A stretch of 64,000 nt of DNA from Nitrospirota bacterium. Lineage in GTDB: Bacteria; Nitrospirota; Thermodesulfovibrionia; Thermodesulfovibrionales; SM23-35. The position numbers were made by a program, and so were the translations under genes. Shown here in pieces: positions 12,330 to 54,035 of the stretch. How positions within the stretch are numbered: position 1 is the stretch's first letter; each line of letters opens with the position of its first letter. The stretch is taken from positions 622 to 64,621 of the forward strand of contig JBFLWW010000006.1 of assembly GCA_040757475.1 (NCBI GenBank), in the 5' to 3' direction. A model generated the notes under the pieces. That model searched no databases and was not told where the DNA came from. It saw nothing but the letters and a program-made list of their open reading frames with translations.

Positions 12330-12407
12330 ATTAGTGATGGGTCTATTAAGTAATGCAATAGGTATGTCATTCCCCGATTAAATCGGGGAATGACAGAATA
12401 TACATAA

Positions 12408-13994: not shown

Positions 13995-13998
13995 TGAA

Positions 13999-14115: not shown

Positions 14116-14130
14116 GACACGGAGGTATCC

Positions 14131-15024: not shown

Positions 15025-15025
15025 G

Positions 15026-22171: not shown

Positions 22172-22223
22172 TAAATTTAGAAAAAGAACCGTTGAGCTCT
22201 TGTTAAGGCAGGGAAGGCGAGCG

Positions 22224-24506: not shown

Positions 24507-24529
24507 TTAATGCGAAAAAGGAGGAAGTT

Positions 24530-25381: not shown

Positions 25382-25448
25382 TTTACGAAGAGATATTTGA
25401 AGAATTTGGAGTAAAAGAGGGTCAAGGTCATTTTAATATAAAATATAC

Positions 25449-27608: not shown

Positions 27609-27616
27609 TAAACTTC

Positions 27617-27871
27617 ACCCTGTTATTGCAATAATCTATATGCCTGAAATTCCTGTTATGGCTAAAATACAATGTTCGCCCCGTTAGATGTTTACTATCT
27701 AACGGGGTTCGAACTCAATCAGACATTTATTCGCAGATGTCACTAAAGGACGTAGATAGAATATCAACGTCCTAAAAGTGAAGTCCTGCTATAATGAACA
27801 AAACTGACATAAATGCCTGATATACCTATATTTAGCCTGTATGATCAAATAAATTTATGCAATAACAGGGT
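27617..27871. repeat. ~255-bp intergenic element bounded by 14-bp inverted repeats (MITE-like), with internal hairpins
   Basis: ACCCTGTTATTGCA at 27617-27630 and its exact reverse complement at 27858-27871. An internal hairpin gttcgCCCCGTTAGAT...ATCTAACGGGGttcgaac lies at 27675-27716. Confidence 0.55.
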
Positions 27872-32425: not shown

Positions 32426-32576
32426 AAGTAAATTCTATCATAATCAGATAATTTTGAATGGGCAATGAATCCGATAATTTTTAATATTCAAGGATTTTTT
32501 GGAATTTGATAGAATAATTTGATAGAGTAAGAATAAAATGTAACTCAGAATACAATATATTGGGTTGGATTCTGAA

Positions 32577-33278: not shown

Positions 33279-33372
33279 GTTTTCACTTGACAGGTGATAC
33301 TATTAATGCTATTAAATTAAAAGATATGAAAATTCTGGTAGGGCATCAAAAAATCAGAAAGGAGGAATGTAC

Positions 33373-34128
33373 ATGAAAGTCCTTAAGGGTTGGGGCATGG
33401 CATTTTTATTATCTTTTATCTTAATTCCTCAAGTCGCCTCAGCAACAGGGCTTGAGGCAGCTATTGGCTTATGGAATCAGGACCCTCAGGGTGATATAGC
33501 ATATAAAGGGGCAGCCCTGAGCCTTGAGAATGATATGAAATATAGCGAAAAAACGAGGTTTTTTGGCAGGGCAAAGATTGACATGCCGCTTATTATCCCA
33601 AACATTTACCTTATGGCAACACCTATGAAGTTTGATGGGACTGGAAGCAAGGATGTCAATTTCACCTTCGGAGATAAGACCTTTACATGAAACGTCGATT
33701 TTACCTCGGAGCTCAAGGTCAATCACTATGATATAGCATTCTATTATGGTTTGCCTTTTGTAAAAACAGCCACTTTGGGGAAACTAAATGTAGATGCAGG
33801 ATTAAATTTGAGGATTACAGACCTGAAGGCTGAAATTACACAAGCATCCACATATGAATCTAAAAGTTTTACGCTACCTCTGCCAATGGTCTACCTGAGT
33901 GCACAGGTAAAACTAATAGATAAATTATCCCTTGAGGCGGAAATTCGTGGTATAGCATATAGCTCCAACCACTACTATGATTTAATCGGAAGGGCTAAAT
34001 ACAAGGTTTTTGGTCCGGCCTTTCTCGGCGCAGGTTACAGATATGAAGATATAAAAATTGACTACAAGGATGTTAAGGCAAATGTCAGGTTTGGGGGACC
34101 CTTTGCAGAAGTGGGGGTTGAGTTCTAA
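33373..34128 (+). CDS. Outer-membrane beta-barrel protein interrupted by one in-frame TGA (33688-33690)
   Basis: ORFs 33367-33690 and 33751-34128 share one frame, and the 60 nt between them contain no further stop. Signal peptide ...QVASATG. Alternating beta-strand pattern with a terminal ...AEVGVEF (C-terminal Phe). Confidence 0.55.
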
Positions 34129-34130: not shown

Positions 34131-35309
34131 ATGCAAAGGATAGCACTTTTACCTTTCTTTGTGGTCCTTTCTCTTATCTGTTTTGTGACTCCTTTTACAA
34201 CAGAAGGGGCTGGACCCAAGTGTGTTGATTCAGAAGGAGAGGCTGTTATTGTTGGCAGTGATGTCCCTTCTGCAAAGACCGAGGCAGTTGCAAGGGCAAA
34301 ATGGTCAGCCATTGAACAGACGGTGGGTGTGGAGGTAAAGGCACAAAGTATAGTTCAGAACATGGCACTTGTTGATGATGCTGTAAGCAAACAAATCAGA
34401 GGTATTGTTACGGGATACAGGATATTAAGGGAAGAAAGCAAAAAAGATACCATCTGGGTGAAGATAAACGCTTGTGTTGAGCCAACAAAGGCGAGGGAAG
34501 CGGTATCAACCCTCGCCCTTAATAATTCAATAGCTATACTTATCCCTGCAAGGAAACCAAAGGTCATAAGTGAGTATGAAAGTAAACATGAAAGCTATGT
34601 TCAGACAACTGATGAATATGAAGAGACCAATATCCTGTCAGAGTCATTGATAGGTAAACTCACAGAGCAGGGCTATCAGGTAGTGGATGTTGCCCCAACC
34701 CATACAATGGACGCTGCTGATATTGAAAAGGCGCTGAAATCAGGGAATTACATGACCCTGAGGTCATTAATGTATAAGTTTCTCTCAAATGTTCTTCTCA
34801 TAGGCAAGATTGACTACACCATTTCCACAAGGAAGGGACAGGACATAGGATACGGTATCTCCATGCCCTTTAATAGTGTTACGGTGAGACTGACATATCG
34901 TATTGTTACCCGGGATAACACAGGTAAAATGGTTATACTTGCGGCCGGAACAGAAGAAGGCAAAGGACTGGCAATGAATGTGGAGGATGCGACTGCAAAA
35001 GGGATGAAGGAATTAGCAGAAAAACTGACACCTGTAATCCTTGATAAAATGGGAAAATACATACAGGGCATCGCAAAGAAGGTTCAGGTCAGGGTGGATG
35101 GCATCACTGATATAAATACAAATTTTGAGGTCAAGGAAGCACTCCAGAATATCGCATGGGTAACTAATGTAGAAGAAAAAGGACTGGGGGAGTTTGTAGT
35201 CAGCTATCCTGAAAATACCATTTATTTAGCAAATAGCATAAGCCAAAAAGGCAATTTTCAAGTAGTGAACTTCCTACCTTATTTAATAACAGTGAAGTAT
35301 CAAAGATAA
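34131..35309 (+). CDS. Exported FlgT-like / LPP20-module protein
   Basis: Signal peptide followed by EGEAVIVGSDVPSAKTEAVARAKWSAIEQTVGVEVKAQSIVQN...GYRILRE, paralogous to 24530, 40023, 41129, 50629 and 51466. At 392 aa it is similar in size to FlgT. Confidence 0.5.
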   Translation: MQRIALLPFFVVLSLICFVTPFTTEGAGPKCVDSEGEAVIVGSDVPSAKTEAVARAKWSAIEQTVGVEVKAQSIVQNMALVDDAVSKQIRGIVTGYRILREESKKDTIWVKINACVEPTKAREAVSTLALNNSIAILIPARKPKVISEYESKHESYVQTTDEYEETNILSESLIGKLTEQGYQVVDVAPTHTMDAADIEKALKSGNYMTLRSLMYKFLSNVLLIGKIDYTISTRKGQDIGYGISMPFNSVTVRLTYRIVTRDNTGKMVILAAGTEEGKGLAMNVEDATAKGMKELAEKLTPVILDKMGKYIQGIAKKVQVRVDGITDINTNFEVKEALQNIAWVTNVEEKGLGEFVVSYPENTIYLANSISQKGNFQVVNFLPYLITVKYQR

Positions 35310-35319
35310 GGAAGGAAGC

Positions 35320-36363
35320 ATGTTAAGAAAGAAGATTATTGTATTTGCAGTAGTTTCTTTGGCAGTAGTTGCCTGTGCACCGCCGGCTATTAAAACAACA
35401 GCCCTTGTTCCAGCCAAATTTCATGAGGCAGCAAAATTAAAGGAAGTAGCGGTATTGCCCTTTGACGGGCCTGGTGGAAGGGAATTTGCTATTGAAATTG
35501 AAGGAGTTATTGCAAATATTAATATCGGTGACAAACAGTATTTCACTTTAGTTGACAGAACAACCCTTGAAAGAGTGATTAGCGAGATGAAGCTCTCACA
35601 GAGCGCCCTTGTTGACCCAGCTACTGCTGCTAAAGTGGGAAAACTTGTTGGCACAAAGGGTATCTATACAGGGGCAATAATAACAGCTAATACCTCTGAT
35701 GGGCATTTTACCGAAACAAGAAGGGAGTGTGCTGAGTGGAAGAAAATAGAAGGGAAAAGGAAGTGGTATCAGGCAAAAGAGGAATGTGTTAAATGGAAGG
35801 AATATACAGTGCCATGCATAAAGAGGGATGCAATTTTTTCCTTTACTTCCAAACTGATTGAGGTAGAGACGGGCAAAATCGTCTATGCTAATACCATTTC
35901 AGGGACAGCGAGTTCATCTGCCTGTCAGGATAGGGGGACACCTCTGAGCAGTTATGACCTCATACAACAGGCAAAGCAATCAGCAAGGGCAGTATTCAGA
36001 AATGATATTGCTCCCTATTATGTTACCATTGAGATTAAACTGATGGATTCAACAGACGGTATCACCTCAGAAGAGGCAGAGAAGAAATTTGAGCAAGGGA
36101 TTGATTTTGCAAAAAATAACAGGTTTGATAGGGCCTGTGAGTTATGGGGAGAGGCAAGAATCCTTTCACCAGATTCTACATCCATCCTTTATAATCTTGG
36201 GATATGTTCTGAAATAACAGGCGAACTTGAGCAGGCACTGGATTTATATAAAAAGGCAGACAGATCGCTTGGCAAACCCGATGATAGAATAACAGCAGCG
36301 CTTGGAAGGGTTTCAGAGGCGATACAGAAGCAGGAGAGGCTTAAAGAGCAACTTGTTAAGTAA
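35320..36363 (+). CDS. Lipoprotein: CsgG/LpoB-like module plus C-terminal TPR
   Basis: Lipobox LAVVAC. The module reads VAVLPFDGPGG...FTLVDRTTLERVISEMKLSQSALVD..AAKVGKLVGTKGIYTGAI. The C-terminus is TPR-like. Confidence 0.55.
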   Translation: MLRKKIIVFAVVSLAVVACAPPAIKTTALVPAKFHEAAKLKEVAVLPFDGPGGREFAIEIEGVIANINIGDKQYFTLVDRTTLERVISEMKLSQSALVDPATAAKVGKLVGTKGIYTGAIITANTSDGHFTETRRECAEWKKIEGKRKWYQAKEECVKWKEYTVPCIKRDAIFSFTSKLIEVETGKIVYANTISGTASSSACQDRGTPLSSYDLIQQAKQSARAVFRNDIAPYYVTIEIKLMDSTDGITSEEAEKKFEQGIDFAKNNRFDRACELWGEARILSPDSTSILYNLGICSEITGELEQALDLYKKADRSLGKPDDRITAALGRVSEAIQKQERLKEQLVK

Positions 36364-36393
36364 GTATAAAGGTATCAGAGATGAGGATAAAGG

Positions 36394-37152
36394 TTGAAGG
36401 ATGAAATTATGGAAATAATAAAGCATCAGCAGCATGATATAACCAATATCCTTAAAAAACTGAGAGATTATCTGCTTCATGACGCTGTAGGAAATAAGAT
36501 TGCTAAAATAGTCCTATTCGGCAGCCATGCAAAAGGATATGCAACACCAAATTCTGATATGGACATTATGATTTTTACTGCTGATGGCAAAGATACGGAG
36601 AAGAGACTCCTTGATAAGATTTATGATTTTATGATTGAACATAATACACCTTTAGAGATAGTTGTTTCTGATGTTAGTGACCTCTATCTATCTAAAGACT
36701 ACTTTACATATAATATTATCCATTATGGGGTGGAGGTATATTCCATGGAGAAGTCAGAATTAAAAAAGCACATGATAAGAGACCTGCATAATCTCGCAGA
36801 GGAATATCTTGAATCAGCAGAGGATGTTTTAGAGAAAGGTCGTATGCGACTTGCCATAGATGCTGGTTATAACTCTGCTGAACTTTCTGCAAAGGCACTT
36901 ATACTTCTAAAAGAAGATGACCTACCTGGAAGTCACGGGGGTATAGTAAGCTTGTTTGGGCAGTTATTTATAAAGACAGAGGAGATAAATAAAGATGTGG
37001 GCAGGACATTAAATATGGCGCTGGAATTAAGAAATAAGGCAAGATATAAACCAAATGTCAGTTTTAGTAAAGATGATACAGATTTAGTATTAAATCTTGC
37101 CAGGACTTTCTTGAAAATCGTATCTAATAAAATTGAGGATAAAACTGGGTAA
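36394..37152 (+). CDS. Nucleotidyltransferase (MNT)-HEPN fusion protein, cytoplasmic
   Basis: KIVLFGSHAKGYATPNSDMDIMIF is a pol-beta-type NTase motif. The helical C-terminal half is HEPN-like (..ALELRNKARY..). No signal peptide. Confidence 0.6.
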   Translation: MKDEIMEIIKHQQHDITNILKKLRDYLLHDAVGNKIAKIVLFGSHAKGYATPNSDMDIMIFTADGKDTEKRLLDKIYDFMIEHNTPLEIVVSDVSDLYLSKDYFTYNIIHYGVEVYSMEKSELKKHMIRDLHNLAEEYLESAEDVLEKGRMRLAIDAGYNSAELSAKALILLKEDDLPGSHGGIVSLFGQLFIKTEEINKDVGRTLNMALELRNKARYKPNVSFSKDDTDLVLNLARTFLKIVSNKIEDKTG

Positions 37153-37218
37153 AGGGGCCTTAAAACTATTATAAACCTTTTCAGTCGCAACGACTGAGAA
37201 TTATAGGGGGTTAGAAAG

Positions 37219-38412
37219 ATGTTTACTTATCAACCGTGTCTTAAAAAGATTTTAGTAGCATTTCTTTTGCCATTAATGTTAGTTGCATGTCTCCCAAAAC
37301 AGATTACAAAGATTGACCCCACTGCTTTTTATGTTGATACTGAACCAATAATGGAAATTCCTATAGTTTGTAAATTAGCTTATGAAAAAGCGATACCAAA
37401 GGTTGCTATTGTAAATTTTACCAATAATACCACCTTTGATTATGCAAAGATGGTTCAGGAGAGTGTTCAGGGCGCAGGGCAGAGGACAACAACTGGAGGC
37501 GCAGGAGCTGGAGTAGGTCCTGGGGTAGCAGGAATTGTTTGGGGGGAAAAAGAGAAAGCACAATTTCAGAAGGATTCCCACAAGATAGAGCGTGAAGTCA
37601 ATGCAAAACTCTCTGAGAGTATAGAGGCAGGTGTAACAGATGAAATTATTAATATTGGTGGTGTGAAGGTGTTTACAAGGTCAGAGATGGAGAAAATTCT
37701 CAGGGAGCACAAATTTCAGATGTCAGGGCTCGTTGATAACAATACCCTTATAAAATTCGGGAAACTTGCAGGTGTGAAGTATATAGTCACAGGCTCTGTT
37801 GATAATGTTAATCTCAAGTGGGTGTCTCTTGAGTCCCTACGGGGCGGACTATCTCAATATCTTGGGATAATTGGCACGGCGCTAGCAGCTGGAGCAGAGA
37901 CCCAGGAAGGCTGGAACATAGAGACAGAAACCACTATAAGAATACTTGATGTAGAGACAGGTGAAATAGGCTTTTCAAAAAAGATAGCAGGTAAAGAAAT
38001 AATTGGTAAAATTCCATATCCTAACTATGATGCCCTTATTGGTGGGATAAAAAAGGCGTCATCAAAAGGACTCTCGGATGCAAGACCTGAGCTTTCAAAA
38101 TACTTCTCTGTAAGGGGATATATTTTACAAACAAGGACGAGTCCAGATGGCAAAGAGAGAATTGCTATTATAAATCTTGGGCAGAGGCAGGGAATGAAAA
38201 AAGGATATAGGTTAATAATATATACCTTTCAGGAAATAAGAGACCCATTTACTGGGAAATCTGATTGTGATAAAGTAAAACTCCCTGTTGAGGCAGAGGT
38301 AACTGACCAGATACAGGAGGATAAGGCATGGATTTCAATAAGTGGTGATATTAATCAGATTCGTCGTGTTCGTGCAGGAGCTTTAGTAGAGAGGGCACAA
38401 ATAGAGGAATGA
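37219..38412 (+). CDS. Lipoprotein with a CsgG/LpoB-like module (Gly-rich insert)
   Basis: Lipobox LMLVAC. KVAIVNFTNNT... then VFTRSEMEKILREHKFQMSGLVDNNTLIKFGKLAGVKYIVTGSV. Contains the insert GGAGAGVGPGVAG. Confidence 0.55.
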   Translation: MFTYQPCLKKILVAFLLPLMLVACLPKQITKIDPTAFYVDTEPIMEIPIVCKLAYEKAIPKVAIVNFTNNTTFDYAKMVQESVQGAGQRTTTGGAGAGVGPGVAGIVWGEKEKAQFQKDSHKIEREVNAKLSESIEAGVTDEIINIGGVKVFTRSEMEKILREHKFQMSGLVDNNTLIKFGKLAGVKYIVTGSVDNVNLKWVSLESLRGGLSQYLGIIGTALAAGAETQEGWNIETETTIRILDVETGEIGFSKKIAGKEIIGKIPYPNYDALIGGIKKASSKGLSDARPELSKYFSVRGYILQTRTSPDGKERIAIINLGQRQGMKKGYRLIIYTFQEIRDPFTGKSDCDKVKLPVEAEVTDQIQEDKAWISISGDINQIRRVRAGALVERAQIEE

Positions 38413-38461
38413 TGTTTTTGAGAATTTTTGGTTTTTAATCCAAACGTGAAAATTACCTTTA

Positions 38462-38524
38462 CCCCGTTAGAAATAAGGGGTAAAATATATAGCGAGAATT
38501 TTAGAAATACTTTTTCTAACGGGG
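38462..38524. repeat. Hairpin element sharing the CCCCGTTAGA / TCTAACGGGG arms
   Basis: CCCCGTTAGAAA at 38462-38473 pairs with TTTCTAACGGGG at 38513-38524. The same arm sequence occurs at 27675-27716. Confidence 0.6.
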
Positions 38525-38604
38525 TTTACATACAGAAGTAATGGTAGCAAACTTTGATGTAGTTAAGACATGTGTCCTTAACAAAAACTCAAGGAGGTGG
38601 GAAT

Positions 38605-39816
38605 ATGAGCAAGAAGGTATTAATACTTTTTTTGGGTCTTTTAGTGGTAATTGTCTCTGGTTGTGCAAAAAAAGAGGTTGTAAGATGCGTTACTCCCGAG
38701 GATAATCCTCAGCACCACTATTTAATGGGTATGAACGCCCTGGAGCAAGGCAAGTTGGATGTAGCAAAAGAAAAGTTTGAAAGAGCAATAACCTGTGATA
38801 AGAGTTTTTCTCCTGCATACGGAGGGCTTGCTATAGTCTCTGCTTACAAGGCGAAGATGCAAACAGACACGGCGTTTAGTAATGTAGAAAGAAAACGAGC
38901 AATTGAGTATGTAAAGGAAGGCGGTAAAAAGGCAAAGACAGAAGAAGATAAGTTTGACCATTATCTATCAATCATGAGGGTTAACACCGTTATGGATGGT
39001 GAAGACTGGCTTGAGAAGACGGTAGAGGCATATAATCTGGCGAAAGACCTTACAGTTGATGAAAAGAAACTGATTTATTATCAGGGAACAGAGGCGCTGG
39101 AATATTTCATGGGTCTTGCTTATCAGGAAGCACTGGAGTTCCAGAAGGCAAGGGATAGTTTTGCAGATGTCCTTAATGCAAAGAGGGAAGGAAAATGGCA
39201 TGAGAGGGCTGATAGGGCCTGGAAGAAAACAGACAAGATTGTCTGTGCAATGGCAGGAATCACAGTGGGAGATGTTGGCAAAAAGATAGCCATAAAAGAT
39301 ACAATTACCCGTGGTGATTTGGCAGCCTTACTTATTGATGAATTAAAGATTGATAAGCTCTTTGCAGGACGTATTCCGGTTGAATCCCAAGTTGAAAAGA
39401 TGAAGGCAGAGTTCACACCGGCAGATATACTCAACCATCAATTTAAAGAAGAGGTTCTCATCGTTATGAAGTGGAAAGTTAGAGGACTTGAACCGAAATA
39501 CGACGAGACTACAAAGGCATATCTTTTCAAGCCTACGGATGTTGTAAAAAGAGGTGAGATGGCATTCATTCTTGAAGATGTTTTGATTAAGTTCACAGGG
39601 GATGAAAAGATAGCTACTGCATACTTCGGGCATGAAAAGTCGCCTTTTCCGGATGTAAGACCAACATCACCTTTCTATAATGCGGTTATGAATATGACAT
39701 CGAGAGGAATTATGGAGGGAGAGCTCTCGGGTGAATTCAGGATAGACGCACCTGTTGACGGCGCAGAGGCACTTCTTGCTATGAGGGTACTAAAGCAGAG
39801 GATGAATATCTACTGA
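38605..39816 (+). CDS. Lipoprotein: TPR region plus three SLH-like repeats
   Basis: ATG at 38605 after AAGGAGG. Lipobox VIVSGC. C-terminal SLH-like segments read ..ITRGDLAALLIDEL.., ..VVKRGEMAFILEDVL.. and FPDVRPTSPFYNAVMNMTSRGIMEGELSGEFRIDAPVDGAEALLAM. Confidence 0.55.
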   Translation: MSKKVLILFLGLLVVIVSGCAKKEVVRCVTPEDNPQHHYLMGMNALEQGKLDVAKEKFERAITCDKSFSPAYGGLAIVSAYKAKMQTDTAFSNVERKRAIEYVKEGGKKAKTEEDKFDHYLSIMRVNTVMDGEDWLEKTVEAYNLAKDLTVDEKKLIYYQGTEALEYFMGLAYQEALEFQKARDSFADVLNAKREGKWHERADRAWKKTDKIVCAMAGITVGDVGKKIAIKDTITRGDLAALLIDELKIDKLFAGRIPVESQVEKMKAEFTPADILNHQFKEEVLIVMKWKVRGLEPKYDETTKAYLFKPTDVVKRGEMAFILEDVLIKFTGDEKIATAYFGHEKSPFPDVRPTSPFYNAVMNMTSRGIMEGELSGEFRIDAPVDGAEALLAMRVLKQRMNIY

Positions 39817-40022
39817 GGGGTTCGTGAAGGAACTGTAAAGCATTTAGTAAAAAGGTCACCTTAGAGTTGATTTATGATGTAGTAGATGAAAGGACAAGAG
39901 GGCTTAAAGAGGAAATTAAATCTATCAATTCGCGGTTAGAGCAGATTCATACACGACTGAACCAGATTATGCACATGCTTGCTAGGCTTCGTGAATAAAA
40001 TTTTTTCGAAAGGGAGGACAAT

Positions 40023-40946
40023 ATGAGAAAAAAATTATTTATCACAACAATAGCTTTATTGATTGGATTAGCTGTCTATGTAAATGCACAACAGCTGATG
40101 CAGCCACCATCACCCATCGATGAGAGATTTGAAAAGGCAAATCAGTGGCTTAATCAGAACAATCTATCAGTTACAACAAGTCCTGAGCAGGCATTTATAA
40201 ATGACTATATCCTTGTAGCAGCAGAAGGACTTCCTTCTGCACTATCAAAAACCCCTGGCCAGAAAAGATTAACTGCTGAAAGGGCTGCCACAGCACTTGC
40301 ATATCGTCAACTTGCAGAATTTCTTGATGGAGTGGCTGTTTGTGGAGACACATTGGTCAGGGATGCAGAACTTCAGTATGATGTTGTGAGAACCGCAGTT
40401 GCAGGATTTGTAAAGGGTGTGCAGGTAGTCTATAAAGAATATAATGAGAAGGAAGAATCTGCCCTTGTTCTGGTTAAAGTTGGAATGACAGGCCCTCAAA
40501 GCCTTGGAAAACTTATGTATGAAAAGATTTTGGGAGATCCAAATATCAAAAAGGCTGTTGTTGAGCCAAAACCTGTATATAAGCCAAAACCAGTCACTCT
40601 CGAAGAAACATACGATGGTCTTATCATTGATGCTACTGAGCAGAATTTCAGGCCTGCCCTTATAAACAGAATCTTTACACCAAAGGGTGAGGTTCTATAT
40701 GACCCATCCAAGGTAAGCCAGAAGGTACTCGTTGAGCAGGGATGCGGTGAATACACAAACAGCGTTGATAAGGCAAGGGCAGCACTCGAAACGAGGGGAG
40801 TAAAAAATTCTCTGATAGTAAAGGCTTCTGGTACTGTAACCCCCTCTGACATTCAGGTATCTGATGATGACGCTGTTAAGATTTTTTCAGCAAATCAGAA
40901 AACAGGATTTCTTGCAGGTGCAAAGGTAGCATTTGTGTTGAAATAG
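40023..40946 (+). CDS. Exported LPP20-like protein
   Basis: Signal peptide ..VYVNAQQ, then YILVAAEGLPS...GQKRLTAERAATALAYRQLAEFLDGVAV..., an LPP20/FlgP-type module. Confidence 0.5.
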   Translation: MRKKLFITTIALLIGLAVYVNAQQLMQPPSPIDERFEKANQWLNQNNLSVTTSPEQAFINDYILVAAEGLPSALSKTPGQKRLTAERAATALAYRQLAEFLDGVAVCGDTLVRDAELQYDVVRTAVAGFVKGVQVVYKEYNEKEESALVLVKVGMTGPQSLGKLMYEKILGDPNIKKAVVEPKPVYKPKPVTLEETYDGLIIDATEQNFRPALINRIFTPKGEVLYDPSKVSQKVLVEQGCGEYTNSVDKARAALETRGVKNSLIVKASGTVTPSDIQVSDDDAVKIFSANQKTGFLAGAKVAFVLK

Positions 40947-40982
40947 TAAACCCCTCACCTTTACAAAAGTGAAGGGGTTTAC
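40946..40982 (+). terminator. Stem-loop starting at the stop codon (terminator- or REP-like)
   Basis: gtaaacccctcac-N10-gtgaaggggtttac forms 13 bp with one bulge. No T-tract follows. Confidence 0.35.
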
Positions 40983-41128
40983 ACCAGTAGCATTGGGGCA
41001 TTACCCTTATGGTGGGGATTTTACAGACCTCAGAGGTGAGCCTTCAACCACGGGGAAAGAGATGTGCTGCTGGTGGTAAGCTTAAAATCCCTGTGCTAAA
41101 ATAAAGCAGTAGGTAAGAAGAGTATTTT

Positions 41129-42343
41129 ATGGGCAGAGCCAACACAATTCTTTTAAGACTCCTCACCCTTATTATTTCAATACTGACCATTGGCTTTCTC
41201 TTCGCAGGTCTTTTGTATGCCAGCACAGAGGAGCGGATTGAGGTAGAAGGACATGCAGCCATAGTTGCAGGTAAAAAAGATTTAGCAAGGGATAAGGCTA
41301 TCAATGATGCCTTTCGCAGGGCTGTAGAACAGGTGGTTGGAGTTATGGTTGAGGCTGAGACCTTGGTCAAAAATCTTGAGCTTTTGACAGACAGGATTTA
41401 CTCTCAAACCACTGGATATATCAAAAACTACAAAATCATCGAAGAAAGGATTGAAGGCGATGTCATGAAGGTAAGGATTGAGGCAGTAGTCGCAATAAGC
41501 AGTCTCGAAAAAGAGCTTGATGCTATTGGCATACTTATGAAGAGGGTCGAAAAACCGAGAATCCTTTTGCTCATCTCCGAACAGAATATTACTCATGACA
41601 GGCCATCATACTGGTGGGGCAGTGGCGACACTATCAGCATTGGCGTTGTGGAGAACACCCTCCTTACAAAGTTTATGGAAAAGGGTTTTAACTTTGTGGA
41701 CCGTCAGGTCATACTTCAAAGCATAAAGGATGACCCTTCTATTGCTCACAATATTAGCGATAGTTTAAGCAATGAGATGGCATTGAAACTTGCCTCAGAA
41801 GGTGAAGCAGAGGTTGTAATCATAGGTCAGGCGGTTGCAAAGGCAGGCCCTGTGCTTTTGGAAACAACCATGCGTTCATGTCAGGCAAACATCTCTACAA
41901 GGGTACTAAACGCAGACAATGGCGAGATACTTGCATCTTTTACTGCTAATGCAGTAGTAGCTCATGTTGATCCTATCACAGGTGGCACAGAGGCATTAAA
42001 AAAGGCATCTAATGACATGGCTGACAGGCTAATTTCACAAGTAATCGCAAAATGGCAGAAACAGGTTGGCGGGGCACGCACAATAAGGCTCATTATATCA
42101 GGGTTGGATTTTGATAAGGTGATAGATTTTAGGGAATTCCTCAGGGATCATGTCCGTGGCATAGTTGACATATATGAACGGAGTTTTAAGGATGATATTG
42201 CAAAACTTGATATAGAGGCAAAAAGCAGTGCAAAGGAGATAGCAGAGGAGCTAAGTAACAAAGGGTTTAATAATGGTGTAATAGAGGTAACATCATTTAC
42301 AGGCAATGTCATCAAGATAAGGTTTATATTGAGTAAACAGTAA
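41129..42343 (+). CDS. Exported FlgT-like / LPP20-module protein
   Basis: Signal or anchor helix, then EGHAAIVAGKKDLARDKAINDAFRRAVEQVVGVMVEAETLVKN..GYIKNYKIIEE. 404 aa. Confidence 0.5.
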   Translation: MGRANTILLRLLTLIISILTIGFLFAGLLYASTEERIEVEGHAAIVAGKKDLARDKAINDAFRRAVEQVVGVMVEAETLVKNLELLTDRIYSQTTGYIKNYKIIEERIEGDVMKVRIEAVVAISSLEKELDAIGILMKRVEKPRILLLISEQNITHDRPSYWWGSGDTISIGVVENTLLTKFMEKGFNFVDRQVILQSIKDDPSIAHNISDSLSNEMALKLASEGEAEVVIIGQAVAKAGPVLLETTMRSCQANISTRVLNADNGEILASFTANAVVAHVDPITGGTEALKKASNDMADRLISQVIAKWQKQVGGARTIRLIISGLDFDKVIDFREFLRDHVRGIVDIYERSFKDDIAKLDIEAKSSAKEIAEELSNKGFNNGVIEVTSFTGNVIKIRFILSKQ

Positions 42344-42359
42344 GATGGAGGTGTTAAAG

Positions 42360-44348
42360 ATGAGAAATGGGTTTATGATCTTATTTATCATTTTTGTACT
42401 ATCCATTTGGGGTTGTGCAACACCGGGAAAGGAAAGTTTTAACTTAGGTCAGGACCTTGCCAGGCAGAGCAGATGGGAAGAAGCAAAAGCGATGTTTGAG
42501 GATGCCCTTGCAAAAGAACCTAAAAACACTGAGTATTTAGAGGCCTTAAAGAAGACAAAAGAAGCCCTTTCAGCAAAACATATGGAAAAGGCGAGGTCAA
42601 TTCTTGCCCAAACACCCATTACCTACGATAAGGCAAGGTCTGCTTATCAAGAGGCTGAGAAGGCATTGAACCTTGTGCCAAAAAGCAAGGATGCCGAGAG
42701 CCTTGTAGCAAAGGTTAAGGCTGAACTGGATAGTATCTCTAAAAGGGCTGAGGTCTTGTATTCAGAGGCTACAAAGGCAATCGAGAAAAATGAATGGGCT
42801 GGTGGTGTAAAGAAATTAAGGGAGATTAATAACTTTTACCCGACCTATCTTGATGCGACTCTAAAACTCAGGCAGGCTGAGGCCGCTGGTATTCCTTATT
42901 ATTTAAATGAGGCAGAGAAATTTAAAGAAGATGAGGACTGGGAAAAAGTAATAGAGACCCTTTTGTTTGCACAGGAAATATCACCTGACAGTGCCGAAAT
43001 AATAGCAGGATTAAAAGATGCAAGGGCAAGGCACAATCCTGATTATTATCTTGCCAGGGCAGAAGAGCATGCTACAAAGAACGACTGGGATAAAGCTATT
43101 GGATTTGCACAGAGGACACTTAATTTAGGCCCAGCAGACAACATTATACAGAGGATTGCCACGATAAGACAGCAGGCAGGATTGTATTATATCAATCAGT
43201 GCAGGCAGGACCTCTCAGAAAAGAGGCTCTATACCGCATATGCAGATGCAACCAAGGCATTGAATTATGACCCATCTATTAAGAACGAGCAGGCTGCAGC
43301 AAAGGTTATAAATCAGCTACTGAGTTCTATGGAGAAGAAGGCAGCATCTTATGAAATCAATGGACAGTTGGGGAATGCCTTAGTATGGTATGAAAAGATA
43401 ATCAGCATTAATCAGGACTATCCGGATATCTTTTTCAAAATACAGACTACTAAAGACACAATCACGGAAAGGGTAGTGAGAAAGATTGCGATCATGGACT
43501 TCATTTCACCTTCTGGTAACCCTGATGCAGGCAGGAAAGTGACAGACAGTTTATTATCATATGTAACGACTCATGCCAGCAGTGATGTGAAGATACTGGC
43601 AAGAGATGTCCTTGGTGCCATCTTAAAAGAGATAGAATTGGGGCAGGCAGGGCTTTATGATATCGAGAGTGCCAAAAAGGCAGGAAAACTGAAAGGTACA
43701 GATGTATTTATCTTTGGAAGTGTCTTGGATTTCAATGTGGAGAGGAATGTTTCAGAAGGACATAAAGTGGAAAATGTTGTTGTAGGCAAGAAGTCTATCC
43801 CGAATCCTGCCTATCAGATGTGGCTTTTTTCCATCAAGGGAAAACCCTCTGAAGAGGAAATGAGGAATGCCCCTCCAGCCACTATAGAGGAAGAGATCAG
43901 AGAGACTGTCAGGTATAGGGTTGGCACTGAGAAGAAAAGGGCTACAGTGGGTGTCTCATTCAGGGTTATTGATGTAGAAGAAGGCGAGGTTATTATTACA
44001 AAGACCATAAAGAAGTCGAATGAGGTGAAGGATGACTATTCGGAGGGTGTTGCATTTGCAAATATCAAGTTTGACCCTCTGGAAATCCCTTCTGATGCTG
44101 AGGTTATAGATAAGGTAACAGAGGATGTAACTTCAGAGTTAGGCTACGAGGTGCTGTCCCGTTTCCAGAATCTTCAGATCCAATATTTTAATGCCGCAGA
44201 GAGACTTAAAAAGAAAAGGGAATATGAAAGGGCAATCGAAAAATATATTGATGCAATACATATCGAGGAGGCTAAAAACATATCAGGCCCCCTTTCGGAA
44301 AACGCCAGAAAGGAGATAGAGCATCTCCTCAAACAGATTGCATCATAG
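42360..44348 (+). CDS. Lipoprotein: long TPR region plus C-terminal CsgG/LpoB-like module
   Basis: ATG at 42360, 8 nt after GGAGG. Lipobox SIWGC. The module reads KIAIMDFISPSGNPDAG...KILARDVLGAILKEIELGQAGLYD..AKKAGKLKGTDVFIFGSV. Confidence 0.55.
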   Translation: MRNGFMILFIIFVLSIWGCATPGKESFNLGQDLARQSRWEEAKAMFEDALAKEPKNTEYLEALKKTKEALSAKHMEKARSILAQTPITYDKARSAYQEAEKALNLVPKSKDAESLVAKVKAELDSISKRAEVLYSEATKAIEKNEWAGGVKKLREINNFYPTYLDATLKLRQAEAAGIPYYLNEAEKFKEDEDWEKVIETLLFAQEISPDSAEIIAGLKDARARHNPDYYLARAEEHATKNDWDKAIGFAQRTLNLGPADNIIQRIATIRQQAGLYYINQCRQDLSEKRLYTAYADATKALNYDPSIKNEQAAAKVINQLLSSMEKKAASYEINGQLGNALVWYEKIISINQDYPDIFFKIQTTKDTITERVVRKIAIMDFISPSGNPDAGRKVTDSLLSYVTTHASSDVKILARDVLGAILKEIELGQAGLYDIESAKKAGKLKGTDVFIFGSVLDFNVERNVSEGHKVENVVVGKKSIPNPAYQMWLFSIKGKPSEEEMRNAPPATIEEEIRETVRYRVGTEKKRATVGVSFRVIDVEEGEVIITKTIKKSNEVKDDYSEGVAFANIKFDPLEIPSDAEVIDKVTEDVTSELGYEVLSRFQNLQIQYFNAAERLKKKREYERAIEKYIDAIHIEEAKNISGPLSENARKEIEHLLKQIAS

Positions 44349-44353
44349 AAAAG

Positions 44354-52317: not shown

Positions 52318-52364
52318 AAATTATTACTGGCTTAAATATCAATATCAATTTAGATTAGTGCTGG

Positions 52365-54035
52365 ATGAAAAAATTAACTTTATTCCTCATTGGGTATTTT
52401 TTATGTGGTGGACTTTTCTGGAATTTTGCCCATGCCAGAACCGTCATCCTTGAAGGCAGGCTTGACAGCAGAATTGCTGTAACCCAGCAGATGGGCTTCA
52501 CAGTAAAGAAGCCTTTGAACAAATTCACTTTCAGATTTGCCCTTCCTGCAACATTCACAAATAAGGTCGTCTCTCAAAATGTACAGGGGCTTAATATCAG
52601 ATTTGAGCCTGAGCCGTTAAAGGTTGATGATGAGGCTGACTCATTCGGCAACCATTTTAAGGTTGTTTCATGGGACAACATTAATAAGGATATTCGGGTA
52701 AACATAGTCTTTGAAACACGAATAAAATCCGAGCTGTCAGTAATGGAAAGCAAGACGCCTTTTCCATTGAAATCAATTCCACAATTAGATATGGTTTATC
52801 TTAAGCCTACAAAGATGGTGCAAAGTGATAGCACTGAGATAATATCCATATCTAAGGAATTAACCCGCAATGCATCCACAGAATATGAGGCTGTTACTGC
52901 CATATTGAATTATGTTGCAGATAATGTTAAATACATATATAATCCGCCGCAGTATGACGCCCTGTACACATTGAAAACAAAATCAGGCAACTGTCAGAAC
53001 TTTGCACACATCAGCATGGCACTTTTAAGGTCCGTAGGAATACCCGCAAGAATTGTTGGTGGTATAAGTCTAAAGCAATCATGGAAAATTCCCCTGGACA
53101 ACAATAACTACCTTGTCCAGAGCATAGGACAGGGCGGACATGCATGGATGGAAATATATTTTCCTGACCTTGGGTGGTTGTCGTACGACCCTCAACAATC
53201 AAAACAGTTTACATCCTCAAGGCATATTAAACAAACTCACGGACTTGACTCCAGCGACATAAACGACTCATGGAGAGCATCTCCTTATCTGCCCGAGTAC
53301 AATGAAAATATTGATGCAAGGTTCATGGAAGATGCAATATCTTTACTGCCAAAATTCTCTGATGCAGCGCCGCGCTCTTACCTCTTCAGCAATAATCTCA
53401 TCGCAAAGGCTGAGGTCAAACACGTAGCTGAAGAGAAACCGAAGCCTCCTGAAGAAACACAAAAACCGCCGCCTCCGCCAGATGTAAAACCAGCACCTCC
53501 AAAGGATAAGGATACAGAGCTTGGTAATATGGATTTCCCTAACCTTGTTGATGTCTATCAGGTTGTCGGCGACAGGGGGGTAAAAATATTGGATAAGGAG
53601 ACTGCCGAGTATGTAACTTCCAAATATATCTATGCACAGGCGTTTGAAATTGACGAAAGGCTACTGATTAATAAAATCTCTCTGGCAATGAGGAAATTTG
53701 GAGGAGACGGCACGGTTTATATTGACCTTGTATCCGACGACAACACAAGACCAAGTCTTAAAGGGGAAAGGTCATTGCCTGTATTTCTGGAAAATATCAA
53801 AAAAGGGCGCGGCTATTACTGGGTAGATTTTACTTTTCCAGATGAAGTAGTTTTAGAAAAAGGCAGATATTGGATTGTCCTCAGACATTCTGGAGAGGTA
53901 ATAATGAACTGGTTTTATATCCCCGGAAATCCCTATGGTGATAGCGATGACACACGCTCTACATTAAAGGGCTACAAATGGGAGGACATACAAAATTTTG
54001 ATTTTGTATTTAAGGTAAAGGCAGAAAGGCTGTAA
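52365..54035 (+). CDS. Exported transglutaminase-like (Cys-His-Asp) protein with a Pro-rich linker and an unknown C-terminal domain
   Basis: Signal peptide. GNCQNFAHISMALLRSVGIPARIVGG supplies the Cys, and GGHAWMEIYFPDLGWLSYDP the His and Asp. The linker reads EEKPKPPEETQKPPPPPDVKPAPPKD. Confidence 0.7.
   Translation: MKKLTLFLIGYFLCGGLFWNFAHARTVILEGRLDSRIAVTQQMGFTVKKPLNKFTFRFALPATFTNKVVSQNVQGLNIRFEPEPLKVDDEADSFGNHFKVVSWDNINKDIRVNIVFETRIKSELSVMESKTPFPLKSIPQLDMVYLKPTKMVQSDSTEIISISKELTRNASTEYEAVTAILNYVADNVKYIYNPPQYDALYTLKTKSGNCQNFAHISMALLRSVGIPARIVGGISLKQSWKIPLDNNNYLVQSIGQGGHAWMEIYFPDLGWLSYDPQQSKQFTSSRHIKQTHGLDSSDINDSWRASPYLPEYNENIDARFMEDAISLLPKFSDAAPRSYLFSNNLIAKAEVKHVAEEKPKPPEETQKPPPPPDVKPAPPKDKDTELGNMDFPNLVDVYQVVGDRGVKILDKETAEYVTSKYIYAQAFEIDERLLINKISLAMRKFGGDGTVYIDLVSDDNTRPSLKGERSLPVFLENIKKGRGYYWVDFTFPDEVVLEKGRYWIVLRHSGEVIMNWFYIPGNPYGDSDDTRSTLKGYKWEDIQNFDFVFKVKAERL

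What the first reader, a model, noticed from the sequence alone, without database searches (positions are those of the whole stretch)
34131..54035. ~20 kb co-directional super-cluster of 14 exported/lipoproteins built from shuffled modules, plus caspase and transglutaminase: candidate undescribed cell-envelope system
Fifteen consecutive plus-strand genes lie between 34131 and 54035. Every product except the MNT-HEPN insert has a signal peptide or a lipobox.

Six have lipoboxes: VVAC, LVAC, VSGC, IWGC, LVSC and LTGC. The proteins are combinations of a few modules:
- an LPP20/FlgT_N-like module
- a CsgG/LpoB/DUF799-like module
- DUF4384
- TPR
- FN3 (6+1 copies)
- SLH-like repeats
- a parallel beta-helix
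- ankyrin repeats

Two putative enzymes are present: a C14 caspase with an intact His/Cys dyad, and a transglutaminase-like protein with a Cys-His-Asp triad.

The known relatives of these modules form oligomeric rings or scaffolds beneath or in the outer membrane. Examples are the FlgT H-ring, the FlgP/LPP20 basal disk, the CsgG channel, LpoB, and the GNA1162-type DUF799 lipoprotein operons. No flagellar, curli or other known secretion core genes are present here.

Inference: this may be a non-flagellar, OM-tethered periplasmic or surface scaffold, or a secretion/matrix assembly. Protease and cross-linking activities may process it, and the neighbouring cAMP module may control it.
Basis: partly seen in the sequence, partly recalled or inferred. 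Interest (0 to 1): 0.85.

Follow-up and report, generated by a model that had tools for sequence, protein, structure and literature searches.

The report
Non-flagellar FlgP/FlgT/CsgG-like envelope gene cluster
A Nitrospirota genome carries a real, conserved but uncharacterised cluster of exported proteins and lipoproteins whose parts are relatives of the ring-forming collar proteins of bacterial flagellar motors and of the curli channel, yet it is not linked to flagellar genes, so it probably builds an unknown outer-membrane-anchored structure.

Summary
There are 15 co-directional genes at 34131-54035. Fourteen have exported N-termini, six have lipoboxes, and every domain call was reproduced.

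The block is not one unit built from shuffled modules. It is a composite of:
- Unit A: a TIGR04219 outer-membrane barrel, a FlgT-like protein, a CsgG-family lipoprotein, a TPR+SLH lipoprotein, a FlgP/LPP20-like protein, a GNA1162+beta-helix+TPR lipoprotein and a transglutaminase-like protein.
- Cassette B: a FlgT-like protein, a TPR+CsgG-like lipoprotein, a 6xFN3 protein and a 98-aa protein. It stands alone in Geobacteraceae and is cleanly deleted in a close relative.
- Genome-specific inserts: MNT-HEPN and Ank-caspase/DUF4384/FlgT_N.

Related versions occur in Nitrospirota, Nitrospinota, Desulfobacterota and Myxococcota metagenome-assembled genomes (MAGs). None of the annotated neighbourhoods contains flagellar genes.

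Best reading: a non-flagellar, outer-membrane-anchored periplasmic ring or collar assembly, possibly around a CsgG-type pore, tethered to the cell wall and linked to cyclic-nucleotide signalling. Function is inferred only; nothing has been tested experimentally. The caspase is accessory; the transglutaminase is core.

The parts
32565..33278 (+). Crp/Fnr-type regulator (cNMP_binding + HTH_Crp_2); candidate regulator of the cluster
   Evidence: Pfam hits at 4.5e-24 and 3e-9. A Crp homologue flanks the orthologous cluster in L091 (69% identity, same side) and in L008 (60% identity, other end).
33367..34128 (+). TIGR04219-family outer-membrane beta-barrel gene, interrupted by an in-frame TGA at 33688-33690 (probable pseudogene in this genome)
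   Evidence: Both halves are in one reading frame. Intact 251-257 aa orthologues in L007 and L008 score 172 and 192 bits against TIGR04219, whose cutoff is 105. The TGA aligns with Gly/Ala in homologues, and L091 has GGA at that codon. TGA is an ordinary stop in 10 of 30 window genes.
34131..35309 (+). o3: secreted FlgT-like protein, full-length paralogue of o9 (unit A)
   Evidence: Pfam FlgT_N 26.3 bits. NCBIfam LipL46 6e-8. 24% identity to o9 over 385 aa. Orthologues are present in L007, L008, L069 and L091.
35320..36363 (+). o4: lipoprotein with a CsgG/LpoB-like domain plus TPR; variable component
   Evidence: Pfam CsgG 2e-9, LpoB and TPR hits; lipobox VVAC. It is absent from L007 and L008, degraded to fragments in L091, and fused to the o7 homologue in L018.
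36409..37152 (+). o5: fused MNT-HEPN (nucleotidyltransferase + HEPN) cytoplasmic protein; genome-specific insert, not part of the system
   Evidence: Pfam HEPN 3e-17 and NTP_transf_2 4e-10. No signal peptide. Absent from L007, L008 and L091.
37219..38412 (+). o6: CsgG-family lipoprotein with a FlgT_C-like C-terminal beta domain (unit A)
   Evidence: Pfam CsgG 37.7 bits (cutoff 20.8), covering profile positions 32-152 of 210. FlgT_C 1.9e-3. Lipobox LVAC. Orthologues are present in L007, L008 and L091.
38605..39816 (+). o7: lipoprotein with TPR plus three SLH repeats; candidate outer-membrane-to-cell-wall tether (unit A)
   Evidence: Pfam SLH 2.3e-15; lipobox VSGC. Homologues sit next to FlgT-like genes in roughly 33 loci from several phyla.
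40023..40946 (+). o8: secreted FlgP/LPP20-like protein with a Tp0624-like C-terminal domain (unit A)
   Evidence: Profile A2 against PDB: C. jejuni FlgP 9hmf_C at 6e-18, Vibrio FlgP 8z5n_2 at 1.5e-12, and 5jir_B residues 135-261 at 2e-8. Homologues are found in roughly 40 loci.
41129..42343 (+). o9: FlgT-like three-domain protein (SHS2 N-domain, CsgG/TolB-N-like middle domain, C-domain); first gene of cassette B
   Evidence: Pfam FlgT_N 42.1 bits, above the cutoff of 28.8. AF2 model pLDDT 79.6. Foldseek top hits are FlgT 3w1e at 3e-11 and 8z5n_0 at 1e-10, followed by CsgG, GNA1162, PelC and LpoB.
42360..44348 (+). o10: lipoprotein with a long TPR superhelix, a CsgG-like alpha/beta domain and a C-terminal helical domain (cassette B)
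   Evidence: Pfam CsgG 41.6 bits, covering profile positions 33-105 of 210. AF2 model pLDDT 87.4. 194 homologues, including proteins from cultured Trichlorobacter lovleyi and Citrifermentans bremense.
44354..46591 (+). o11: secreted protein with an N-terminal domain followed by six FN3 repeats (cassette B)
   Evidence: Pfam fn3 7e-33. Six repeats align with one another. The N-domain is weakly related to the GNA1162/CsgG-like domains by hhalign (P about 6e-5 to 8e-5, probability 61-66%).
46609..46905 (+). o12: 98-aa secreted protein with a strongly conserved core; last gene of cassette B
   Evidence: Conserved core GRYQLFQGxYT...FLxDTxTGxVKRYxNKIDExGRYIETWxPT (alignment A4). 78% identity to the Desulfobacterales copy. 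No Pfam or PDB match. 93 cluster representatives at E<=1e-3.
46928..49204 (+). o13: lipoprotein with GNA1162(DUF799)-like domain, FN3, parallel beta-helix and TPR (unit A)
   Evidence: Pfam GNA1162-like 1.5e-8, NosD and Beta_helix about 6e-9, TPR. PDB 4hrv at 1.8e-3 across the whole domain. Lipobox LVSC. 95% identical in L091, where it directly follows o8.
49276..50574 (+). o14: lipoprotein with ankyrin repeats plus a C14 caspase domain (His263/Cys314); accessory insert
   Evidence: Pfam Ank_2 2e-19 and Peptidase_C14 2.5e-16. Catalytic dyad present. Absent from L007, L008 and L091. Caspase genes occur near the family only sporadically: L012, L069 and L089.
50629..51444 (+). o15: secreted FlgT_N/LPP20-like domain plus DUF4384; accessory insert, paralogue of the gene at 24530-25381
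   Evidence: Pfam DUF4384 9e-20 and FlgT_N 1.7e-4. BLASTP to the 24530 product 6e-17.
51466..52317 (+). o16: secreted FlgT_N-domain protein; accessory insert
   Evidence: Pfam FlgT_N 28.9 bits. 46% identity to the o9 N-domain. Absent from L007, L008 and L091.
52365..54035 (+). o17: secreted transglutaminase-like protein (Cys210/His259/Asp275) with a C-terminal beta-rich domain (unit A)
   Evidence: Pfam Transglut_core 1.3e-29. PDB 3isr at 3e-9 and 6g49 at 6e-9. Orthologues close the cluster in L007, L008 and L091, and lie nearby in L018 and L064.
21119..27608 (+). Upstream FecR, CHAT protease, LPP20+DUF4384 protein and CHASE2 adenylate/guanylate cyclase; possibly a linked signalling module
   Evidence: Pfam assignments. 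The DUF4384 protein is a paralogue of o15. The same themes surround a FlgT-like gene in L089: caspase, LPP20, DUF4384, CHASE2 cyclase and CsgG fusions. FecR follows 19 FlgT-like genes.

Best explanation
The region encodes a non-flagellar, outer-membrane-anchored envelope assembly. Its parts are paralogues of the proteins that build the outer rings of polar flagellar motors (FlgT, FlgP, FlgO/CsgG-like lipoproteins).

It is a composite of two separable units.
- Unit A: TIGR04219 barrel, FlgT-like o3, CsgG-family lipoprotein o6, TPR+SLH lipoprotein o7, FlgP-like o8, GNA1162+beta-helix+TPR lipoprotein o13 and transglutaminase-like o17.
- Cassette B: FlgT-like o9, TPR+CsgG-like lipoprotein o10, 6xFN3 protein o11 and small protein o12.

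Inferred mechanism:
- The lipoproteins anchor to the inner face of the outer membrane.
- The SHS2 (FlgP/FlgT_N) and TolB-N/CsgG-like domains oligomerise into rings or a collar, possibly around a CsgG-family pore.
- The SLH repeats tie the assembly to the cell wall.
- The FN3 chain and the beta-helix extend from it.
- The transglutaminase-like enzyme cross-links or trims a component.
- Expression or activity follows cyclic-nucleotide signals through the adjacent Crp.

Shown here: homology, export signals, conserved synteny, modularity and the absence of flagellar linkage. Inferred only: ring formation, location, substrate and regulation.
For: Homology to ring-forming proteins:
- The FlgP homology of o8 is strong and ungapped through the beta-hairpin insert. 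PMC12222027 links that insert to ring formation.
- The best structural match of o9 is FlgT, and its middle domain matches CsgG, GNA1162, PelC and LpoB.
- Vibrio FlgT, FlgP and FlgO form concentric OM-anchored rings.
- A FlgO-family hit occurs on a CsgG-like protein in the orthologous locus L091.

Conserved synteny and modularity:
- The cluster is syntenic in L007, L008, L009 and L091.
- Cassette B stands alone in Desulfobacterales, Geobacter and T. lovleyi.
- Cassette B is cleanly deleted in L091, leaving an o9-o12 fusion stub.

Neighbour census of FlgT-like genes:
- Downstream: GNA1162 36, CsgG 21, FecR 19, PEGA 8.
- Upstream: LPP20 19, TPR 17, SLH 14.
- No flagellar family appears in either top-25 list.

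Export: 14 of 14 products have export signals and six have lipoboxes.

Cyclic-nucleotide neighbours recur.
Against: - There is no experimental datum for any member.
- No oligomer prediction could be run.
- The CsgG matches in the window cover only part of the Pfam profile, and no PDB CsgG sequence hit was obtained.
- o8 lacks the lipid anchor that FlgP has.
- The barrel gene is broken in this genome.
- Cassette B is dispensable in a close relative.
- Nearly all comparative data come from MAGs.
- The gene order of unit A differs between Nitrospirota and the more distant phyla.
Confidence: 0.5

Rival explanations
1. A CsgG-based (curli-like, 'type VIII') secretion or surface-assembly pathway. 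On this reading the CsgG-family lipoproteins form an outer-membrane channel. The GNA1162-, FlgT- and FlgP-like proteins are periplasmic accessories. The FN3 protein and/or the 98-aa protein are the exported matrix or fibre subunits, and the transglutaminase cross-links them outside the cell. This overlaps with the best explanation and differs in making export the primary function.
For: - Pfam CsgG hits are above the gathering score in o4, o6 and o10.
- Distant versions of unit A carry a full-length CsgG (L022: profile positions 8-207 of 210, 8e-34) next to a GNA1162-like lipoprotein.
- The widespread non-curli csgG/GNA1162 cluster affects biofilm, PNAG and pili in A. baumannii.
- o12 is small, secreted and the best-conserved product of cassette B.
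Against: - No CsgE, CsgF, CsgA or CsgB-like genes are present.
- No amyloid-type repeats are seen in o11 or o12.
- The window's CsgG matches omit much of the profile.
- In o10 the segment that corresponds to the CsgG transmembrane hairpin is highly charged and is modelled with high confidence as part of a soluble sheet (my reading of the sequence).
- Foldseek gave no information on that domain, because the TPR region dominated the hits.
Confidence: 0.25
2. Accessory ring genes of the flagellar motor: an H-ring or basal-disk equivalent for a polar flagellum in these lineages, encoded away from the main flagellar loci.
For: The closest characterised homologues are all flagellar: FlgT (3w1e, 8z5n), FlgP (9hmf, 8z5n) and FlgO. 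Many Desulfobacterota and Thermodesulfovibrionia are motile (my own knowledge).
Against: - There are no flagellar genes in the 64-kb window, nor within 10 kb in ten annotated loci.
- No flagellar family appears among 258 neighbour ORFs.
- Family members occur in Myxococcota MAGs, a phylum that generally lacks flagella (my own knowledge).
- SLH, FN3, beta-helix and transglutaminase partners are unknown in flagellar motors.
- PMC12222027 states that FlgP comes from a broad family.
Confidence: 0.08
3. A set of cell-wall remodelling or regulation factors. LpoB-like lipoproteins would activate or scaffold peptidoglycan enzymes, with SLH binding to wall polymers and the transglutaminase-like protein acting as a wall-directed cysteine peptidase.
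For: - Weak LpoB hits in o4 and o6.
- A SpoIID-domain protein lies inside the L007 cluster, and SLT lytic transglycosylases lie next to the clusters in L091 and L089.
- SLH repeats are present in o7.
Against: - The LpoB scores are below the gathering threshold and overlap stronger CsgG hits.
- The peptidoglycan enzymes are not conserved neighbours.
- This reading does not account for the FlgT/FlgP-like, FN3 and o12 components.
Confidence: 0.1
4. No system at all: an accretion of functionally unrelated envelope lipoprotein genes that are merely co-located.
For: - The gene content varies: o4, o5 and o14-16 come and go.
- Cassette B is separable.
- The order of unit A genes differs between phyla.
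Against: The same family combinations recur across at least four phyla at 25-45% identity, and gene spacing within cassette B is tight at 5-22 nt.
Confidence: 0.07

Closest known systems
Vibrio flagellar H-ring (FlgT, FlgP, FlgO) and Campylobacter basal disk (FlgP)
   Same: - The same three building blocks are present: a FlgT-like three-domain protein (o3, o9), a FlgP-type SHS2 domain with the hairpin insert (o8), and CsgG/FlgO-like lipoproteins.
- The products are exported, and the lipoproteins can anchor to the outer membrane.
   Different: - There is no linkage to flg, fli or mot genes.
- o8 is not lipidated.
- The partners here (TPR+SLH, 6xFN3, GNA1162+beta-helix, transglutaminase, TIGR04219 barrel, o12) are unknown in flagellar motors.
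- The family is present in Myxococcota MAGs.
Non-curli csgG / GNA1162 (DUF799) lipoprotein cluster (A. baumannii D1G37_12595-12605; N. meningitidis GNA1162 locus)
   Same: - A CsgG-family lipoprotein is encoded with a GNA1162-like lipoprotein and a further small lipoprotein.
- The cluster is widespread and its function is unknown.
- Distant versions of unit A contain exactly this pair downstream of the FlgT-like gene.
   Different: - Here the pair is embedded in a much larger set: FlgT-like, FlgP-like, TPR+SLH, FN3 and transglutaminase.
- In the window the GNA1162 domain is fused to a beta-helix and TPR, and it is not adjacent to the CsgG-like genes.
Curli secretion system (CsgG/CsgE/CsgF with CsgA/B)
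   Same: A CsgG-family domain in outer-membrane lipoproteins.
   Different: - No CsgE, CsgF, CsgA or CsgB is present.
- Profile coverage is partial.
- The transmembrane hairpins are not demonstrated.
Leptospira lipoprotein LipL46
   Same: o9 aligns with residues 34-346 of the 413-position LipL46 model at 1.2e-17. o3 and o16 align more weakly.
   Different: - The scores are far below the equivalog cutoff (63.8 against 400 bits).
- LipL46 is a lipoprotein studied only as an antigen or adhesin. o9 has no lipobox.
Pel exopolysaccharide export (PelB TPR-porin + PelC lipoprotein ring)
   Same: - TPR scaffolds occur together with a PelC/TolB-N-like lipoprotein fold (Foldseek hits 5t0z, 9h80).
- A beta-helix protein is present.
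- Second-messenger genes are linked.
   Different: - There are no glycosyltransferase or synthase genes.
- The barrel is a small TIGR04219 protein that is not fused to TPR.

Membership tests
Flagellar H-ring / basal disk kit (FlgT, FlgP, FlgO) | FlgT three-domain architecture (FlgT_N, FlgT_M, FlgT_C) | tested here: met
   o9 scores 42.1 bits against Pfam FlgT_N (cutoff 28.8). The AF2 model's best Foldseek hits are FlgT 3w1e (3e-11) and 8z5n_0 over the full length, although TM-scores are low (0.28) because the domain orientation differs.
Flagellar H-ring / basal disk kit (FlgT, FlgP, FlgO) | [quoted passage not shown] | tested here: met
   The o8 family profile hits C. jejuni FlgP at 6e-18. The alignment runs without gaps from the SHS2 helix through the insert. 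The insert's role is taken from PMC12222027.
Flagellar H-ring / basal disk kit (FlgT, FlgP, FlgO) | N-terminal lipidation of FlgP and FlgO | tested here: not met
   o8 has a signal peptide but no lipobox. The CsgG-like proteins o4, o6 and o10 do have lipoboxes.
Flagellar H-ring / basal disk kit (FlgT, FlgP, FlgO) | Genomic linkage or co-occurrence with flagellar genes; assembly around the LP ring | tested here: not met
   No flagellar Pfam family appears in the window flanks, in ten annotated loci, or among 258 neighbour ORFs. Genome-wide co-occurrence and physical assembly are not testable here.
Curli-type CsgG secretion channel | Full-length CsgG domain including the two transmembrane beta-hairpins | tested here: inconclusive
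   The scores exceed the gathering threshold, but they cover only profile positions 51-100 (o4), 32-152 (o6) and 33-105 (o10) of 210. No PDB CsgG sequence hit was found. The o10 model shows long, charged strands in that region. o6 was not modelled.
Curli-type CsgG secretion channel | CsgE/CsgF accessory proteins and CsgA/CsgB amyloid subunits | tested here: not met
   No such Pfam or NCBIfam families are found in any product of the window cluster.
Non-curli csgG/GNA1162 lipoprotein cluster | Adjacent CsgG-family and GNA1162(DUF799)-family lipoprotein genes | tested here: inconclusive
   The feature is met in distant relatives (L022; 36 GNA1162 and 21 CsgG hits among ORFs downstream of FlgT-like genes). 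In the window both families are present but are not adjacent, and the GNA1162 domain is fused into o13.
SLH-mediated outer-membrane-to-wall tether | Three SLH repeats on an outer-membrane-anchored protein; pyruvylated wall polymer as ligand | tested here: inconclusive
   Pfam calls SLH at 2.3e-15, and three repeats are readable in o7, which also has a lipobox. No csaB-type gene lies in the window. The ligand cannot be tested here.
Transglutaminase-like cysteine protease/transferase superfamily | Cys-His-Asp catalytic triad in a Transglut_core domain | tested here: met
   Transglut_core at 1.3e-29, covering 161-276. Cys210, His259 and Asp275 were read from the sequence. PDB relatives are 3isr and 6g49. 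The activity (cross-linking or hydrolysis) was not tested.
C14 caspase/orthocaspase | His/Cys catalytic dyad | tested here: met
   Peptidase_C14 at 2.5e-16. His263 lies in YSGHG and Cys314 in DSCFSG.

The most novel reading that the evidence does not exclude
The FlgT/FlgP/FlgO-type ring proteins known from flagellar motors are, in these anaerobic lineages, the parts of an independent envelope organelle. On this reading it is an outer-membrane-anchored, wall-tethered collar built around a CsgG-family pore, with a projecting FN3/beta-helix structure, switched by cAMP. This would be the non-flagellar ancestor or sister of the H-ring/basal-disk kit, spread across Nitrospirota, Nitrospinota, Desulfobacterota and Myxococcota.
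Probability: 0.25. Interest if true: 0.8.

Novelty: new variant of a known kind. Interest (0 to 1): 0.62.

Why it matters
- Origin of flagellar disks. How flagellar motors acquired their outer disks and rings is an open question. A recent in-situ structure paper notes that FlgP comes from a broad family of unknown role. This cluster gives a concrete, conserved, non-flagellar context for FlgT-, FlgP- and FlgO/CsgG-like proteins together.
- The csgG/GNA1162 cluster. It links those proteins to the widespread csgG/GNA1162 lipoprotein cluster, whose function is still unknown.
- Testability. Cassette B exists in cultured, genetically approachable Geobacteraceae (T. lovleyi, C. bremense), so the hypothesis can be tested by deletion and cryo-electron tomography.
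- Limit. If the products turn out to be ordinary dispersed lipoproteins, the finding reduces to an annotation improvement.

Tried and rejected
- Foldseek of the o10 model returned only TPR proteins, so it gave nothing on the CsgG-like domain.
- PDB sequence and profile searches found nothing for o12, for the barrel or for the L022 CsgG. For o10 they found only TPR.
- The NCBIfam hit of o10 to Myxococcus TraC covers only the N-terminal TPR part. TraC's own C-terminal domain is uncharacterised, so this was not pursued as a homologue.
- The promoter and terminator scan showed no excess over shuffles and did not define operon limits.
- The hhalign links of the o11 N-domain to GNA1162/CsgG-like domains are only suggestive (probability 61-66%).
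- A PD40-propeller reading of o12 rests on weak periodic matches (about 58 aa apart) in giant PD40-containing proteins. Pfam does not support it.
- One literature search returned only noise. Searches co-mentioning FlgT+CsgG and LPP20+CsgG found no papers.
- UGA recoding of the barrel gene was rejected. TGA ends 10 of 30 genes, and the orthologue has GGA at that codon.
- A defence-system reading (caspase, CHAT, MNT-HEPN) was rejected for the cluster as a whole. Those genes are not conserved parts, and the core products are exported.

Full report
**Source and observation**

The window comes from a Nitrospirota MAG. Its proteins are 100% identical to NCBI entries MEW6674985-999, locus tags AB1348_03045 onward. 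The closest relatives are labelled Thermodesulfovibrionales.

Fifteen + strand ORFs run from 34131 to 54035. A Crp-like gene (32565-33278) and an outer-membrane barrel gene (33367-34128) lie upstream on the same strand.

A simple N-terminal analysis finds a basic start followed by a strongly hydrophobic stretch in all 14 products other than MNT-HEPN. The caspase dyad (His263/Cys314) and the transglutaminase triad (Cys210/His259/Asp275) are present.

**What the individual proteins are**

- o8 had no Pfam hit. A profile of 12 family members matches C. jejuni FlgP (9hmf_C, 6e-18) and Vibrio FlgP (8z5n_2, 1.5e-12). The alignment is ungapped from the SHS2 helix through the beta-hairpin insert. The C-terminal half of o8 matches a domain of Treponema Tp0624 (5jir_B, 2e-8). 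PMC12222027 reports that ring formation in this family goes with that insert.
- o9 was modelled with AF2 (pLDDT 79.6). Its best PDB matches are FlgT (3w1e, 3e-11) and FlgT in the Vibrio LPHT ring (8z5n_0). Its middle domain then matches CsgG, GNA1162, PelC, LpoB and LptE.
- o3 is a full-length paralogue of o9 (24% identity over 385 aa).
- The N-domains of o15 and o16, and of the upstream gene at 24530, belong to the same SHS2 family.
- o10 (pLDDT 87.4) is a TPR superhelix, followed by an alpha/beta domain with long strands, followed by C-terminal helices. Foldseek returned only TPR proteins for it.
- o13 carries a complete GNA1162 domain (4hrv), then FN3, a beta-helix and TPR.
- o17 resembles TGase-like cysteine proteases and the chain deposited as protein-glutamine gamma-glutamyltransferase (6g49), which I take from memory to be P. 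aeruginosa TgpA.
- The two ORFs at 33367-34128 are one TIGR04219-family OM barrel gene. Orthologues score 172-192 bits against a cutoff of 105.
- That barrel gene is interrupted by TGA at 33688-33690. A 90%-identical orthologue has GGA at that codon. TGA is an ordinary stop codon in this genome.

**Comparative genomics**

*Unit A.* The orthologous locus in three relatives keeps barrel, o3, o6, o7 and o8, followed in L007 and L008 by o9-o12, then o13 and the transglutaminase. The relatives are L007, L008 and L091, at 51-95% protein identity. L091 lies in the same MlaFED-Crp context as the window. In L091, o13 directly follows o8.

*Accessory inserts.* None of the three relatives has MNT-HEPN, the Ank-caspase, the DUF4384 protein or o16. 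o4 is absent from two of them and fragmented in L091. These genes are therefore genome-specific inserts.

*Cassette B.* L091 lacks o9-o12. It retains a 39-codon stub that joins the first 34 residues of o9 to the last 5 of o12. This is a clean deletion, so o9-o12 is a separable cassette.

The same four genes stand alone, in unrelated contexts, in:
- a Desulfobacterales contig;
- Geobacter MAGs;
- another metagenome contig, followed there by a T2SSE ATPase and a cNMP-binding protein;
- cultured Trichlorobacter lovleyi, between recX and alaS.

Citrifermentans bremense also has an o10 homologue.

*Wider distribution.* A scan of one genome per species found 199 o9 relatives, and the best 80 were kept. 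All are MAGs of Nitrospirota, Nitrospinota, Desulfobacterota lineages, Myxococcota and one Bdellovibrio.

- Of 65 FlgT-like genes with at least 2.5 kb downstream, 18 are followed by o10 and 24 by a DUF799-like gene.
- Of 66 with at least 2.5 kb upstream, 27 are preceded by o7 and/or o8.
- Of 50 that can be judged on both sides, 39 have at least one partner.

A Pfam census of neighbours of the non-cassette-B genes gives the following.

| Side | ORFs scanned | Most frequent families |
|---|---|---|
| Downstream | 140 | GNA1162-like 36, CsgG 21, FecR 19, DUF4412 10, PEGA 8, FlgT_C 6 |
| Upstream | 118 | LPP20 19, TPR about 17, SLH 14, otherwise housekeeping |

L022 shows the full distant form. 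In order it reads: LPP20, TPR+SLH, FlgT-like, GNA1162, a full-length CsgG (8e-34), PEGA, FecR, an unassigned 346-aa gene, and then cassette B without an o12 gene detected.

**Flagellar or not**

No flagellar family appears in any of these places:
- the window flanks;
- ten loci with precomputed annotation;
- the two top-25 neighbour lists.

Family members also occur in Myxococcota MAGs. I know of no flagellar motor with SLH, FN3, beta-helix or transglutaminase partners. I therefore treat the flagellar reading as unlikely. Genome-wide co-occurrence could not be tested.

**Signalling link**

- Crp flanks the cluster in the window, in L091 and in L008.
- L007 has a GAF-HD-GYP gene inside the cluster.
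- L090 has a cNMP-binding protein after cassette B.
- Upstream in the window lie FecR, a CHAT protease, an LPP20+DUF4384 protein and a CHASE2 cyclase, followed by a BrkB-cNMP protein.
- In L089 a FlgT-like gene sits among LPP20, DUF4384, a CHASE2 cyclase, caspase genes and CsgG fusions.
- DUF4384 and CHASE2 are known accessory domains of prokaryotic caspase homologues (PMC7475262).

The caspase/CHAT plus DUF4384 pairs therefore look like a recurrent but optional companion module.

**Mechanism**

What is established about the relatives:
- Vibrio FlgT forms a C26 ring, and the lipoproteins FlgP and FlgO form C58 OM-anchored rings.
- C. jejuni FlgP forms concentric disk rings.
- CsgG forms an oligomeric curli transport complex, and a PelC dodecamer structure is deposited (5t11).

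By inference, the products here assemble into an OM-anchored ring or collar. The SLH repeats of o7 would tether it to the wall. It may surround a CsgG-family pore. The transglutaminase-like enzyme would modify a component.

None of these steps is shown. The CsgG matches in the window are partial, and the pore question is open.

**Novelty**

NCBI names the products only generically: hypothetical, CsgG/HfaB family, SLH domain-containing, GNA1162 family, transglutaminase domain-containing.

The only related literature I found is the A. baumannii csgG/GNA1162 cluster. It is described as widespread and of unknown role, and its mutants show lower PNAG, Cup pili and biofilm. No paper in the library co-mentions FlgT or LPP20 with CsgG.

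I class the finding as a new variant of a known kind: an OM-associated ring and lipoprotein assembly in a non-flagellar, conserved and modular genetic context.

Noticed in passing
window 33688-33690: In-frame TGA inside the TIGR04219 outer-membrane barrel gene. The 90%-identical orthologue in L091 has GGA (Gly) at this codon. The same stop is present in an independent Logan assembly (L001). This is probably a recent nonsense mutation, so the barrel may be non-functional in this genome.
   Followed up: yes
L091 11048-11167 (GCA_030019415.1, JASEEX010000025.1): A 39-codon ORF joins the first 34 residues of o9 to the last 5 residues of o12. The junction falls at a shared Thr-Glu. It is a clean natural deletion of the whole four-gene cassette B in a close relative, while the rest of the cluster stays intact.
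   Followed up: yes
window 21119-29092: A signalling block: FecR-domain protein, TPR-less CHAT protease (768 aa), LPP20+DUF4384 protein (paralogue of o15), CHASE2 adenylate/guanylate cyclase, and on the other strand a BrkB-family membrane protein fused to a cNMP-binding domain. A very similar theme surrounds a FlgT-like gene in the marine contig L089.
   Followed up: partly
window 46609-46905; proteins P0210, P0249, P0261, P0278: The first ~40 residues of the conserved o12 core recur about every 58 aa in giant proteins, several of which carry PD40 (TolB-type beta-propeller) repeats. This hints that o12 is a single propeller-blade-like unit. Pfam does not call PD40 in o12.
   Followed up: partly
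L018 14957-16858 (- strand): In a Syntrophorhabdales MAG the o4 homologue (CsgG/LpoB+TPR) and the o7 homologue (TPR+SLH) are fused into one 633-aa ORF. A fusion of this kind argues that the two proteins work together.
   Followed up: no
L088 7145-8308 and L090 15902-17383: A T2SSE-family (PilB/PilT-like) ATPase gene lies next to cassette B in two unrelated contexts: upstream in T. lovleyi, between recA and recX, and downstream in a metagenome contig. This may be coincidence.
   Followed up: no
window 36409-37152; L065 1159-1882: MNT and HEPN are fused into a single 247-aa polypeptide inserted inside the cluster. A separate MNT/HEPN-like pair also sits between a FlgT-like gene and a DUF799 gene in a Nitrospinota MAG.
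   Followed up: no
window 40023-40946 (o8 residues ~195-307): The C-terminal domain of the FlgP-like protein matches residues 135-261 of Treponema pallidum Tp0624 (5jir_B, 2e-8), a domain of unknown function in that OmpA-like protein.
   Followed up: no
L007 8414-9937 and 18199-19779: In one relative a TPR+SpoIID-domain protein is inserted between o8 and o9, and a GAF-GAF-HD-GYP protein is inserted between o13 and the transglutaminase. These are further examples of variable cargo at the same junctions.
   Followed up: no
window 10995-16219: A multihaem cytochrome c (528 aa, class III/MtrC-like domains) lies next to Fe-S/CCG and NrfD-like membrane proteins. This is an anaerobic respiratory module unrelated to the finding.
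   Followed up: no
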